Positions 60,401 to 64,000 of a stretch of DNA of 64,000 nt are shown in pieces. Position numbers: made by a program. The DNA is taken from contig NC_092356.1 in the NCBI RefSeq assembly GCF_963676685.1, forward strand, positions 30,194,001-30,258,000. The letters run 5' to 3'. Each line of letters starts with the position of its first letter. The first letter of the stretch is position 1. The stretch is from Mytilus edulis (Eukaryota).

Positions 60401-63400
60401 AAATTTGATCCCTGGTCGGACTGTATAGACTTAGGAAGTCCTACTAATGTGAAAAATTTGATCAAAGCTTTGACGATAGTAGGTGTATTGATATTTCTTA
60501 GCGGAATAGCTTCAGGAAAGCGGGTAGATGTACACATGATTGTCAATAAATATGCATTTCCAGTCTTGGTCTTTGGTAAAGGTCCAACACAGTCAATTAG
60601 AACTCTGCTGAAAGGTTCGTCAAAGGCTGGAATAGGCAGAAGTGGTGCTGGTGGTATTTTCTGGTTAGGTTTACCAACAACCTGGCATGTATGACATGAT
60701 TTGCAGTATTCTGCAACATCATTTCTAAGTTTAGGCCAGTAAAAATGCTGCAAGATCTTAAGGCAAGTCTTCCTTATACCTAAGTGTCCAGCCAAGGGGG
60801 TGTCATGGGCAAGACCAATAATTTCTTGTCTATAAACTTTAGGCACCACCACTTGGTACACCACTCTCCATTCCTCCTCTGGGGTAGCATCAGGAGGCCT
60901 CCACTTCCTCATTAAAATGCCGTCCTGATGGTAATAGCATTCGGCCACTTTGTCTGCTTCCTCCTGTGGTTGAGCTCTCTGGCTGAGCTGAAGAACCTCA
61001 GGGTCTTTATGTTGTTCTTCAGATAAATTCTTTCGGTCTAATGAATGGCTGTTTACATCTGGCCATGGCATAATAACATTTTTGTTAACACTAGGTGGTT
61101 TTATAATTGCCTTTTCTGAGTTACCAGGACCTTCAATGTCAGCTATGAAAGTGTCAGAAAGGTCCATGTAATCAAACTTGTCTGTTTGCAAATTCTCATC
61201 TTGTTGTTTTCTAGCCATCGCCCTAGTAACAACACAAGCTGGATATAATTCAGCATCATCTTCAGGTGATTTAACATCCACCACTGGTTCACTGGTAACA
61301 ATTGGTTCAGCAACCACTTTGTTCCTAGCTAGATCATTTCCTAGCAATAATGTAACACCCTCAACAGGGAGATTAGGACGAACACCCACAATAACTGGTC
61401 CAGTTATTAAATCTGACTTCAGATAAATACGATGGAGAGGAACATCTATACAACCCAACTCTACACCTTGTAACAAAACGGAGGCACCAACAGAAGTCTT
61501 CTCGGACAAAGGCAACACACCTTCTAACAATAAAGACTGAGAAGCTCCAGTGTCTCGTAAAATCTTAATAGGCTGAAGAGTGGTATCATCAACAATAGAA
61601 ATAAACCCATCAGACATAAAGGGTTTATATTCCTCCATGTAATCACAAAAACTGGACTTAAAAGCCTGACGCGCAGGGCATTCCAATGTACTGGTAATAT
61701 AAGGTGTCGTACAAGCACTGGTCTTCGGCTTATTATCTCGTTCATTCTTCTTCTGGAGTCTAAAACAATCAGCCATCAGGTGACCAATCTTCTTACAATA
61801 AGCACAAGTCAGTGACTTCTTCTCAAAAGTATCAAATTTTGGACTAGACATATTATAACTGGACTGACTCTTATTCTGTGGAACAGGCTTACTATCAGTA
61901 TGCTCAGTGCTTTGATTTTTGTAATTTCCACTGGAAGTATTAACATTTTGACCCTTGAAACTTCTTTTATGTGAAAGAGTATAATTATCTGAAATAACAG
62001 CTGCATCATGTATTGACTCAACAGTTTTGTCGTCTAAATGTGTTTTTAAGTCTAAATGAACACATTGTTTGAACTCTTCTAATAACATCAATTGTCTTAG
62101 GTTATCAAAATTGTTGTTTGTTTTCTTTGAAGTAAGCCATTTATCAAATAGATCTTCTTTTTCCCGAGCAAATTCCACATAGGTTTGCGAATCAAACTTT
62201 TTATAAGATCTAAATTTCTGTCTGTATGCTTCTGGTACTAGCTCATAAGCTTTCAAAACTTCCTGTTTCACCGTGTCATAGTCTGAACTTTTTTCTGATG
62301 GAAGTGCGGAGTATATTTCAGCGGCTTTACCCTCAAAAACACTTTGTAGCATTGTAGTCCAATATGGCTTTGGCCAATTCAAATTATTAGCAATTTTCTC
62401 AAACTGTGGAAAATATTTATCGACTGTTTTTTCACAAAATTTTGGAACCAAACGTATATTTTTTGCTGCATCAAAATAATCTGATTTCGACTGGACTTTA
62501 GTGTTGCTTTCTTCTTTGACCATTTCAATTTTCAGTTTTTCCATCTCTAGCCTTTCTCTCATTTCAAGTTCTTTTAATTTTAATTCATCTTCTTTTATTT
62601 TCTCCCTCTCCTTCATTTCCAGTTCTTTTAATTTAAATTCATCTTCTTTTTCTTTTCTCTCTATTTCCAACCTTTCCTTCATTTCCAGTTCTGCTTGTTT
62701 TAATTTAAATTCATGTTCTAATTCAAGCTGTTTTAATTTAAAGGCATCTACATTTTCGACCTTAAGTTCAAGAGCCTCTTCACCTAAAATTTCTGCGTCA
62801 ACTAATTTGTCTATAACCAAATTTTTTATAATTTGTTTTCTCATAGATACTTTAAAATTTAACTTCAGATGTTTAGCAAGCAACACTAATTCGTCTTTCT
62901 TTAAATTATCAAAAGTCTCCAGGTCTGGCGTTTTCAAAAATTTACCGGCATCAAATGCCATTTTGTAGAATTTTGTTGGCTAGTTATAATGAAAATATTG
63001 AAAAAATTTTGAATAATATATTTTCAGTCTCCCGGACGAGCCCCCAATTTCTGTTACGGCCAGAAATCGCCTTTAAATTGTAGCCAACAAAAGACACAAA
63101 TCAATAATAAAATTTAACAATATTTATTATACAAAAGTTTACAAGAAGTATTTTACAAATATTACTGATAACTTAACTGTCAAAATATGAGTCCACTCTT
63201 TTATCTTTATCTGTATCCGGAAATCTTTCGGAATCCAATCTGAATATTACGTTCACTACTAAGGTCACAATCCAGTATGATGTTGTTTGTAGAATAAAAG
63301 TGTCAATCCAAATGCTGTGAATACTAATGTCTATCAATGTCTATGTCCAAGTTTTAATTATGAGAGTTTAACTTTAGTGTCTGTATATATAATGTTATCA

Positions 63401-64000
63401 ATGGAAAATTCTAGAACACTCTATAATGGAACATTGTGGAAAATCCTGGAAAGTTACAACGGAAGTTTCTGGAATAACGTAGAAGTTTAAATTACGCATC
63501 TTTTATAAGGATCATTCTAGAAAGTTCCAATCATTCTGTGATTGTTCCAGTGATTCCTAAACTGCACAATTATAAGATTATTTGGTAAACAACTATCAGG
63601 CCATACAACACAAATTAGGCCAACATAAATAAACATAATAATTACAATATCATAACAATGTCGTAATAAAATTTACGGAGTGTCATTTTTAATCTTTTCT
63701 CTTATTAACTTCAGTAGTTTTTGCGTCAAAAGAGCACTCCTGTATATATTGTCCGTATAGCATGAACGAGCATAACGTATTAACTGAATTATGTCTCGTA
63801 TAGCATGAACATGAACATGCACGAGCATAACGTATTAACTGAGATATGTTCCGTATAGCATGAACATGCACGAGCATAACGTATAAACTGAGATTGTAAA
63901 TGTAATATCATTCGGCAGATGATATGTTACTGGTGAGAAATGAGAAAAATGATAATTCGAAAGTTGAAATCATCCCGTTTGTCATCGATTTTAGTGTGAA

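What the first reader, a model, noticed from the sequence alone, without database searches (positions are those of the whole stretch)
63384..63527. Heat-shock-element array in the LTR U3: candidate heat-activated retrotransposon
Seen: three perfect 3-pentamer HSEs plus further GAA units at 10-bp spacing (63429, 63439, 63449, 63482) within ~125 bp, the nearest ~13 bp upstream of TATATA in the direction of transcription. Known: nGAAn inverted arrays next to a TATA box are the HSF1/hsp70 promoter design, and plant ONSEN uses LTR HSEs for heat activation. Inference: an intact animal LTR element wired to HSF1 in a probably intertidal host, which could transpose under heat stress and confer heat inducibility on neighbours (here the duplicated cGLR 5' region).
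Basis: partly seen in the sequence, partly recalled or inferred. Interest (0 to 1): 0.8.

Follow-up and report, generated by a model that had tools for sequence, protein, structure and literature searches.

The report
Heat-shock sites in a retrotransposon LTR
A young, intact-looking jumping gene carries three textbook heat-shock-factor binding sites beside its promoter, a design already shown to make such elements heat-activated in a plant and a flatworm, but untested here.

Summary
Each 606-bp LTR of a minus-strand LTR retrotransposon (57538-63657) holds three perfect three-unit heat shock elements (5' LTR: 63404-16, 63462-74, 63515-27), plus an imperfect five-unit run. The other 62,788 bp hold one perfect HSE. 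None of 20,000 dinucleotide shuffles of the LTR reached three.

The element looks intact:
- LTRs are 606/606 identical.
- It has a 4-bp target duplication, a tRNA-Pro-type primer site and a polypurine tract.
- It has one unbroken 1577-codon gag-pol ORF.

Integrase lies before reverse transcriptase and Gag has a SCAN-like domain, so this is a Gmr1-like Ty3/gypsy element.

The HSEs sit next to two candidate TATA boxes. The start site is unknown.

The most likely reading is an HSF-driven, heat-inducible LTR promoter. That is inference only: I had no expression, binding or other-copy data.

It is not a first for animals. HSE-bearing Mag, CsRN1 and Gmr1/Osvaldo LTR elements were shown to be heat-induced in the flatworm Macrostomum lignano (PMC12801592).

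The intertidal host and the cGLR-neighbour claims are weakly supported or untestable here. Verdict: new member of a known kind, moderate interest.

The parts
57538..63657 (-). Whole LTR retrotransposon, 6120 bp, Gmr1-like Ty3/gypsy
   Evidence: LTR pair. One ORF. Domain hits. Flanks.
63052..63657 (-). 5' LTR, 606 bp, TG...CA ends
   Evidence: blastn 63052-63657 vs 57538-58143, 606/606 identical. Sequence read.
57538..58143 (-). 3' LTR, 606 bp. Carries the same three HSEs at 57890-57902, 57948-57960 and 58001-58013.
63658..63661 (.). Target-site duplication, right copy (4 bp, ACAT on the element's strand)
   Evidence: Read. Same 4 bases at 57534-57537.
57534..57537 (.). Target-site duplication, left copy
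63515..63527 (.). HSE A (distal in the sense direction), perfect three-unit HSE, LTR positions 131-143
63462..63474 (.). HSE B, perfect three-unit HSE, LTR positions 184-196. A further GAA unit at 63482-63484 lies in register after a 5-bp gap.
63429..63451 (.). Imperfect five-unit run (13 of 15 core bases): GAA units at 63429, 63439 and 63449 with degenerate units between them
   Evidence: 5 units, 2 mismatches. unit map.
63404..63416 (.). HSE C (proximal), perfect three-unit HSE, LTR positions 242-254
63534..63556 (.). Three further units (sense-strand GAA) at 9-11-bp spacing upstream of HSE A, not in strict register
   Evidence: unit map (63534, 63545, 63554).
63527..63531 (-). ATTGG (inverted CCAAT) abutting HSE A
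   Evidence: The motif is recalled; function not tested.
63501..63507 (-). TATA candidate 1 (TATAAAA), 7 nt downstream of HSE A. If it is the one used, HSE B and C would be transcribed.
   Evidence: Consensus recalled.
63384..63391 (-).
63353..63358 (-). ATTAAA, candidate polyadenylation signal (LTR 300-305)
   Evidence: Signal recalled.
63123..63128 (-). AATAAA, candidate polyadenylation signal (LTR 530-535)
63030..63046 (-). Primer-binding site, 17 nt, starting 5 nt after the 5' LTR. Complementary to the 3' end of tRNA-Pro.
   Evidence: Read. The same 17-letter string is printed as the probe against the 3' fragment of tRNA-Pro(AGG) in PMC4688932.
58228..62961 (-). Single gag-pol ORF, 1577 codons plus stop, no internal stop or frameshift
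61963..62235 (-). Gag capsid-like SCAN domain (aa 243-333)
   Evidence: PF02023, E 1.4e-11, 44.4 bits, cut-off 27.
61765..61806 (-). CCHC zinc knuckle (aa 386-399)
   Evidence: regex. zf-CCHC E 0.014, below cut-off.
61543..61554 (-). D-T-G-A tetrapeptide (aa 470-473), the expected place of an aspartic protease active site. Motif only.
   Evidence: No Pfam hit, no PDB sequence hit, unusable fold model.
59788..60846 (-). Integrase (aa 706-1058): H2C2 zinc domain, rve core, p58_C/SH3-like end
   Evidence: PF17921 2.7e-21, PF00665 1.1e-11, PF22938 3.1e-09.
58879..59355 (-). Reverse transcriptase (aa 1203-1361), YIDD at aa 1310-1313
   Evidence: PF00078 2.2e-35.. Best PDB match is Ty3 Gag-Pol 7q5b, E 4.7e-126.
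58297..58692 (-). RNase H (aa 1424-1555)
   Evidence: PF17917 3.8e-36, PF17919 4.5e-34.
58144..58154 (-). Polypurine tract (11 purines) abutting the 3' LTR
   Evidence: Read.

Best explanation
The HSE array is the stress-responsive enhancer of the LTR promoter of a young, autonomous-looking Gmr1-like Ty3/gypsy retrotransposon.

Inferred mechanism:
1. On heat or other proteotoxic stress, the host's heat shock factor trimerises.
2. It binds the three canonical HSEs, and probably the imperfect five-unit run, in the upstream part of the 5' LTR.
3. It activates the adjacent TATA promoter.
4. The resulting full-length RNA is both the gag-pol message and the replication template.

The same array in the 3' LTR points into the flanking 43-bp satellite. 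It lies about 0.2-0.3 kb from host sequence on the other side, so it could also act on neighbours.

Shown: the sites, their excess over chance, their position beside TATA boxes, and the element's intact anatomy. Inferred: HSF binding, heat induction, the start site, and any effect on neighbours.
For: - Three perfect HSEs per LTR against 1 in the other 62,788 bp.
- 0 of 20,000 dinucleotide shuffles reach three. A null that keeps unit density reaches three in 10 of 200,000 trials.
- All 16 GAA/TTC units between 63404 and 63556 carry a purine at the -1 position (my count from the listing).
- HSE C lies 12 nt, and HSE A 7 nt, upstream of a sense-strand TATA candidate.
- The three HSEs have different flanks and mixed polarity, and Tandem Repeats Finder finds no repeat across them, so they are not a simple tandem duplication.
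- The element is intact: LTRs 606/606 identical, TSD, PBS and PPT present, an unbroken 1577-codon ORF with Gag, integrase, RT and RNase H hits.
- Precedent from PMC12801592 (abstract and passages). Using the same HSE definition, 6 of 137 M. lignano LTR families had 1-4 canonical HSEs. Four of them rose more than 250-fold on heat, and mutating the HSEs abolished the response of one LTR.
- ONSEN's LTR element is bound by HSFA2 (PMC3907296 passages).
Against: - I had no expression, binding or methylation data.
- The start site is unknown. If the distal TATA (63507->63501) is the one used, two of the three HSEs lie downstream of the start.
- Only one copy is available. Its two LTRs are identical by descent, so nothing shows that the HSEs are conserved in the family.
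- 9 of the 16 units read GGAA/TTCC, and GGAA is 50.8/kb here against 5.86/kb in the background. Another GGAA-binding factor is therefore possible.
- Long contiguous arrays are no better than about 0.5-1% of shuffles.
- CpG observed/expected is 0.36 inside the element against 0.81 in the rest of the window. This hints at a history of germline methylation, that is, silencing.
- In the flatworm, 2 of 6 HSE-bearing families were not induced. For Drosophila, the same paper reports that HSE-like motifs in transposons lacked confirmed induction.
Confidence: 0.6

Rival explanations
1. The sites are true HSF sites, but what they give the element is not heat-triggered bursts. Either they provide HSF-dependent expression in particular tissues or stages (for example the germ line or early embryo) or under other stresses, or this copy is kept silent by methylation or small RNAs so that the sites are latent.
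For: - CpG depletion inside the element (0.36 against 0.81) suggests past germline methylation.
- The LTR keeps 8 CpGs, 3 of them in the array. ONSEN's LTR, by contrast, has no CG or CHG sites (PMC3907296 passage).
- In the flatworm paper, an HSE near the start site was 'not the only factor required'.
Against: Three perfect HSEs next to a TATA box is the layout of strongly heat-induced promoters (recalled for hsp70 genes). The flatworm families with two or more HSEs were all strongly induced.
Confidence: 0.2
2. The array is a cluster of GGAA-core sites for another factor family (ETS-like or similar), spaced about one helical turn apart. The three HSE matches are then a by-product.
For: - GGAA density is 9 in 177 bp (50.8/kb) against 5.86/kb in the background.
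- 9 of 16 units are GGAA/TTCC.
- Several units (63429, 63439, 63449, 63534, 63545, 63554) have no perfect inverted partner.
Against: - With the 13 units of the core kept and only re-placed, three alternating trimers arise in 10 of 200,000 trials.
- 7 of 16 units are AGAA/TTCT, not GGAA.
- STAT-type (TTCN3GAA, TTCN4GAA) and kappa-B-type patterns occur 0 times in the LTR. These motifs are recalled.
Confidence: 0.12
3. Chance or composition: an A+T-rich, GAA-rich LTR happens to contain HSE-like strings with no function.
For: - The LTR is 29.5% G+C and holds slightly more GAA/TTC units than its shuffles: 25 against 21.7 +/- 3.4.
Against: - 0 of 20,000 shuffles reach three perfect HSEs, with a mean of 0.0073. 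By my Poisson arithmetic that mean gives about 6.5e-8 per LTR-sized stretch.
- The remaining 62,788 bp hold 1.
Confidence: 0.03

Closest known systems
HSE-containing LTR retrotransposons of the flatworm Macrostomum lignano: Mlig-id115 (Mag), Mlig-id36 and Mlig-id55 (CsRN1), Mlig-id38 (Gmr1/Osvaldo). Source: PMC12801592.
   Same: - Animal Ty3-superfamily elements with 1-4 canonical HSEs per LTR, under the same definition (nGAAnnTTCnnGAAn or its inverse), near a predicted TATA box.
- One of those families belongs to the Gmr1/Osvaldo group.
- In the flatworm, heat induction above 250-fold and dependence on the HSEs were shown.
   Different: - The host is different. The only lead here is Mollusca.
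- There are no expression or mutation data here.
- The flatworm Gmr1/Osvaldo family has one HSE. This LTR has three perfect ones plus an imperfect run.
- Sequence relatedness to the flatworm families was not tested, because I had no sequences of them.
- Their HSE positions are in a figure and in supplements that I could not see.
ONSEN (Ty1/copia, Brassicaceae)
   Same: An LTR carries HSF-binding elements that couple the element's transcription to the host heat response. HSFA2 binding to the LTR was shown (PMC3907296 passages).
   Different: - It is a plant element of a different superfamily (Ty1/copia). This element's RT/RNase H matches Ty3 best.
- ONSEN's LTR has no CG or CHG sites. This LTR has 8 CpGs.
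Helitron1_CE of Caenorhabditis
   Same: It is a mobile element that carries HSEs, is heat-activated through HSF-1, and spreads HSEs next to host genes. Sources: the passage in PMC12801592, and the listing with the start of the abstract of PMC6927752.
   Different: It is a rolling-circle DNA transposon, not an LTR promoter.
Heat-shock gene promoters (hsp70 type)
   Same: Several HSEs lie within about 125 bp, immediately upstream of a TATA box. An inverted CCAAT is adjacent.
   Different: - The promoter design is recalled, not tested against a host hsp gene. None is in the window.
- Here the downstream 'gene' is a retrotransposon genome.
- The start site is unmapped.
Gmr1 clade of Ty3/gypsy elements
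   Same: - Integrase lies upstream of RT. This is the clade's stated hallmark (PMC8220671 and PMC6238403 passages).
- Gag carries a SCAN-like domain. The vertebrate SCAN domain is said to derive from a Gmr1-like Gag (PMC3424704 passage).
   Different: Placement in an RT tree was not done, because no reference sequences could be reached.

Membership tests
HSE-bearing, heat-responsive LTR retrotransposons (functional class: ONSEN, M. lignano families) | At least one canonical HSE (three alternating nGAAn units) in the LTR | tested here: met
   Three per LTR. 0 of 20,000 shuffles reach three.
HSE-bearing, heat-responsive LTR retrotransposons (functional class: ONSEN, M. lignano families) | HSEs lie upstream of the transcription start, in U3 | tested here: inconclusive
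   There are two sense TATA candidates. All three HSEs lie upstream of one, and only HSE A lies upstream of the other. No RNA data.
HSE-bearing, heat-responsive LTR retrotransposons (functional class: ONSEN, M. lignano families) | Transcription rises on heat stress | not testable with these tools
   No expression data can be reached.
HSE-bearing, heat-responsive LTR retrotransposons (functional class: ONSEN, M. lignano families) | HSF binds the LTR | not testable with these tools
   No binding data.
HSE-bearing, heat-responsive LTR retrotransposons (functional class: ONSEN, M. lignano families) | HSEs shared by the copies of the family | not testable with these tools
   The window holds one copie only. 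The collections that could hold more copies are closed or hold only bacteria and archaea.
Ty3/gypsy superfamily | RT and RNase H of Ty3/gypsy type, with H2C2 plus rve integrase | tested here: met
   PF00078, PF17917, PF17919, PF17921 and PF00665, all above cut-off. Best solved relative is Ty3 Gag-Pol 7q5b, E 4.7e-126.
Gmr1 clade | Integrase upstream of reverse transcriptase | tested here: met
   Integrase at aa 706-1058, RT at aa 1203-1361. Definition.
Gmr1 clade | Groups with Gmr1 elements in an RT/IN phylogeny | not tested
   No reference sequences can be reached.
Autonomous (intact) LTR retrotransposon | LTR pair, TSD, PBS, PPT and an uninterrupted gag-pol with Gag, protease, integrase, RT and RNase H | tested here: inconclusive
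   All are met except protease. Protease is only a D-T-G-A motif at aa 470-473, with no Pfam hit, no PDB hit and a fold model of pLDDT 33. Breaks in the ORF: 0 stops, 0 frameshifts.
ONSEN / Ty1-copia | Ty1/copia-type RT and Gag | tested here: not met
   The domains are Ty3/gypsy-type. It may work like ONSEN but is not a member.
cGLR / Mab-21 gene as right-hand neighbour | Mab-21 nucleotidyltransferase domain in the duplicated unit | tested here: inconclusive
   1 of 10 stop-free segments hit PF03281, at E 0.042 and 14.3 bits against a cut-off of 24.1 (28525-28821). Atlas lead to a Mab-21_C cluster at 0.89, rank 12. The ORF next to the duplicated stretch gave no hit. The copy beside the element runs off the window.

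The most novel reading that the evidence does not exclude
This is the first molluscan example of a currently active retrotransposon family wired to the heat shock factor. On this reading, its insertions spread heat-responsive enhancers. Here the 3' LTR would fire into a 4-kb 43-bp satellite, and the 5' LTR array would sit within about 1 kb of the upstream region of a paralogue of a Mab-21/cGLR-like immune gene. Heat waves would then both raise the element's expression and rewire nearby host and satellite transcription.
Probability: 0.12. Interest if true: 0.75.

Novelty: new member of a known kind. Interest (0 to 1): 0.45.

Why it matters
If heat induction is confirmed, this would be a third lineage, after Brassicaceae ONSEN and flatworm Mag/CsRN1/Gmr1 families, in which an LTR element has acquired canonical HSEs. 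That would support the recurrent convergent evolution that PMC12801592 predicts. It would apply to a host that is probably a mollusc (a lead only), a group exposed to marine heat waves.

It would also give a concrete locus at which to ask two questions. Do such insertions pass heat responsiveness to neighbouring genes? Do they drive satellite transcripts?

As it stands, this is a well-formed sequence-level candidate and not a demonstrated mechanism.

Tried and rejected
- **Long array rejected.** I first read the proximal HSE and the five-unit run as one contiguous array of 10-11 units. One search showed this was wrong. The alternation flips phase at 63429, and the best 10- and 11-unit runs are reached by 27 and 64 of 5,000 shuffles.
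- **Tandem duplication rejected.** Tandem Repeats Finder reports three short repeats in the LTR (63109-63159, 63130-63149, 63326-63344). None lies in the HSE array.
- **STAT, kappa-B and NFAT readings.** STAT-type and kappa-B-type patterns occur 0 times in the LTR. GGAAA occurs 4 times. These motifs are recalled.
- **Protease not confirmed.** Pfam at E<=1 gave nothing for aa 430-700. PDB sequence search at E<=1 gave 0 hits. The single-sequence AlphaFold2 model had mean pLDDT 33.3, so no fold search was run on it.
- **tRNA genes and RNA families.** ARAGORN found 0 tRNA genes. Rfam at gathering threshold found 0 matches.
- **No exact empty site.** The paralogous segment lacks 57297-57537, so the insertion boundaries rest on the LTR ends and the TSD.
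- **Neighbour gene.**
  - of 10 ORFs, 2 had sub-threshold hits (QRICH1 and CO_deh_flav_C) and none hit Mab-21.
  - I gave 10 of the 17 stop-free segments listed. Not given were 25655-25825, 26941-27129, 28201-28383, 30347-30526, 31460-31642, 31564-31797 and 31831-31998. The ORF 31567-31797 had already been searched.
  - The pieces were searched one by one.
  - PDB search of 29154-29921 gave only weak myosin-Va matches (E 0.018).
- **Not used.** The genome-contig scan (bacteria and archaea only) and search_dna_similar (phages, plasmids, E. coli) cannot hold an animal retrotransposon.
- **Unchecked because closed.** So other copies of the family, conservation of the HSEs, an RT phylogeny and the host's identity all stay unchecked.
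- **Literature.** No paper describing an HSE-bearing LTR element in a mollusc turned up.
  - 6 papers held the terms.
  - 25 listed, none containing 'heat shock element'.
  - 11 papers.
  - 38 papers, 33 listed.
  - This covers only that library. Supplements were closed, so the flatworm paper's Table S1 and the HSE positions in its figure were not seen.
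Full report
**Observation**

A pattern scan found perfect three-unit heat shock elements at 63404-63416, 63462-63474 and 63515-63527, with identical copies at 57890, 57948 and 58001. The whole 64,000-bp window holds 7 perfect HSEs, of which 1 (at 3914) lies outside these two places.

The extra GAA units at 63429, 63439, 63449 and 63482 are present. The first three form a five-unit run with 13 of 15 core bases matching. All 16 GAA/TTC units between 63404 and 63556 have a purine at the preceding position (my count from the listing).

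**What carries the array**

The array lies in a 606-bp direct repeat. Positions 63052-63657 and 57538-58143 are 606/606 identical. These are the LTRs of a 6120-bp element on the minus strand. Its anatomy is complete apart from the protease:

- TG...CA ends and a 4-bp target duplication.
- An 11-purine tract abutting the 3' LTR.
- A 17-nt primer-binding site starting 5 nt after the 5' LTR. The identical string is printed in PMC4688932 as the probe for the 3' fragment of tRNA-Pro(AGG).
- One ORF of 1577 codons with no internal stop or frameshift.

Pfam places the domains in this order:

| Domain | Residues |
|---|---|
| SCAN-like capsid | aa 243-333 |
| CCHC knuckle | aa 386-399 |
| Integrase | aa 706-1058 |
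| Reverse transcriptase | aa 1203-1361 |
| RNase H | aa 1424-1555 |

The best solved relative is Ty3 Gag-Pol (7q5b, E 4.7e-126). Integrase upstream of RT is the stated hallmark of the Gmr1 clade of Ty3/gypsy elements (passages in PMC8220671 and PMC6238403). The vertebrate SCAN domain is said to derive from a Gmr1-like Gag (PMC3424704).

The protease is seen only as D-T-G-A at aa 470-473. Pfam, PDB sequence search and a single-sequence fold model (pLDDT 33) all failed to confirm it.

**Promoter anatomy on the element's strand**

| Feature | LTR positions |
|---|---|
| Inverted CCAAT | 127-131 |
| HSE A | 131-143 |
| TATAAAA | 151-157 |
| HSE B | 184-196 |
| Imperfect five-unit run | 207-229 |
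| HSE C | 242-254 |
| TATATATA | 267-274 |
| ATTAAA | 300-305 |
| AATAAA | 530-535 |

All three HSEs lie in the first half of the LTR, where U3 is expected. However, there are two TATA candidates and no RNA data. If the distal TATA is the one used, HSE B and C would be transcribed. The U3/R/U5 split is therefore inference. The TATA, Inr, CCAAT and poly(A) consensus strings are recalled.

**Is it more than chance?**

- Dinucleotide shuffles of the LTR give a mean of 0.0073 perfect HSEs. At least one occurs in 139, at least two in 7, and at least three in 0 of 20,000.
- For the 144-bp core the counts are 62, 1 and 0 of 20,000.
- When the 13 units of the core are kept and only re-placed, three trimers arise in 10 of 200,000 trials.
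- The three HSEs differ in flanks and polarity and are not a tandem duplication.

Against over-reading: there is no exceptional long contiguous array (27 and 64 of 5,000 shuffles reach the best 10- and 11-unit runs). My own first hand-reading of such an array was wrong.

**Alternatives**

GGAA is enriched in the array, at 50.8/kb against 5.86/kb in the background. An ETS-like reading therefore cannot be excluded, but it does not explain the inverted trimers. STAT-type and kappa-B-type patterns are absent from the LTR.

CpG observed/expected is 0.36 inside the element, 0.61 in the LTR and 0.81 in the rest of the window. This fits a history of germline methylation, so the sites may be latent in vivo.

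**Context**

The window holds a segmental duplication. Positions 19786-24861 match 50170-57296 plus 63692-64000 at about 80-95% identity. Each copy carries a 43-bp satellite (22717-24605 and 53321-57284). Only the second copy holds the element. Its LTRs are identical, so the insertion is younger than the duplication. There is no exact empty site, because 57297-57537 is missing from copy 1.

The 3' LTR promoter points into the satellite. The right flank (63692-64000) is the paralogue of 24603-24861. A Mab-21/cGLR identity for the gene that follows in copy 1 rests on two weak leads:

- a sub-threshold Pfam hit at 28525-28821 (E 0.042);
- an Atlas lead for 29154-29921, where the nearest clusters are molluscan hypothetical proteins (0.95) and a Mab-21_C cluster ranks 12th at 0.89.

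The ORF nearest the duplicated stretch gave nothing. These pieces were searched one by one, and I left out the step of joining them into a spliced model. The matching gene beside the element would lie beyond the window's end.

**What is known**

- PMC12801592 (abstract and passages) used the same HSE definition. In Macrostomum lignano, 6 of 137 LTR families carry 1-4 canonical HSEs. Four families (Mag, CsRN1, Gmr1/Osvaldo) rise more than 250-fold on heat. Mutating the HSEs abolishes the response of one LTR. The authors expect more such cases.
- ONSEN's LTR element is bound by HSFA2 (PMC3907296 passages).
- Helitron-borne HSEs in Caenorhabditis (PMC6927752) and HSE-like motifs in Drosophila transposons (PMC6649756) I saw only through the flatworm paper's passage and the search listing.
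- No mollusc case appeared.

**Verdict**

The design is that of an HSF-driven LTR promoter (confidence 0.6 that it is heat-inducible). It belongs to a known kind of system and would be a new member from a new host group.

- other copies of the family;
- conservation of the HSEs;
- an RT phylogeny;
- the host's identity;
- the HSE positions in the flatworm families.

Three scripts joined window segments in memory for background statistics.

Noticed in passing
window 58228-62961 (-): The pol domain order is integrase before reverse transcriptase, and Gag carries a SCAN-like domain. This marks a Gmr1-like Ty3/gypsy element rather than an ordinary Gypsy.
   Followed up: yes
window 58144-63051 compared with the rest of the window: CpG observed/expected is 0.36 inside the element, 0.81 in the window without it and 0.61 in the LTR. 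This may be a trace of germline methylation of this family.
   Followed up: partly
window 19786-24861 and 50170-57296 plus 63692-64000: A segmental duplication at about 80-95% identity. Only the second copy holds the LTR element.
   Followed up: partly
window 22717-24605 and 53321-57284: A 43-bp satellite with 43.5 and 92.2 copies at about 90% matches, one array in each copy of the duplication. The 3' LTR of the element points into the longer array.
   Followed up: no
window 40474-42837: A 64-bp tandem repeat, 37 copies, 92% matches, in a region of strong negative GC skew.
   Followed up: no
window 32672-33419: A 169-bp tandem repeat, 4.4 copies, 94% matches.
   Followed up: no
window 63761-63897 and 24657-24759: A short minisatellite of about 55 bp, in roughly 2-3 copies, in the stretch right of the element and in its paralogue.
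   Followed up: no
window 28525-29921 (+): Pieces of a possible Mab-21/cGLR-like gene lie in separate stop-free segments in two frames. Support is a weak Pfam hit (E 0.042) and an Atlas lead to molluscan clusters. This could be a gene with introns or a pseudogene.
   Followed up: partly
window 57343-57420; 15283-15361; 13869-13944: A short dispersed repeat of about 78 bp at 77-78% identity, one copy inverted. One copy lies just left of the element in a stretch absent from the paralogous segment.
   Followed up: no
window 4006-4170 and 3914-3926: A 165-bp stretch that matches its own reverse complement at 87%. The only perfect HSE outside the LTRs lies about 80 bp to its left.
   Followed up: no
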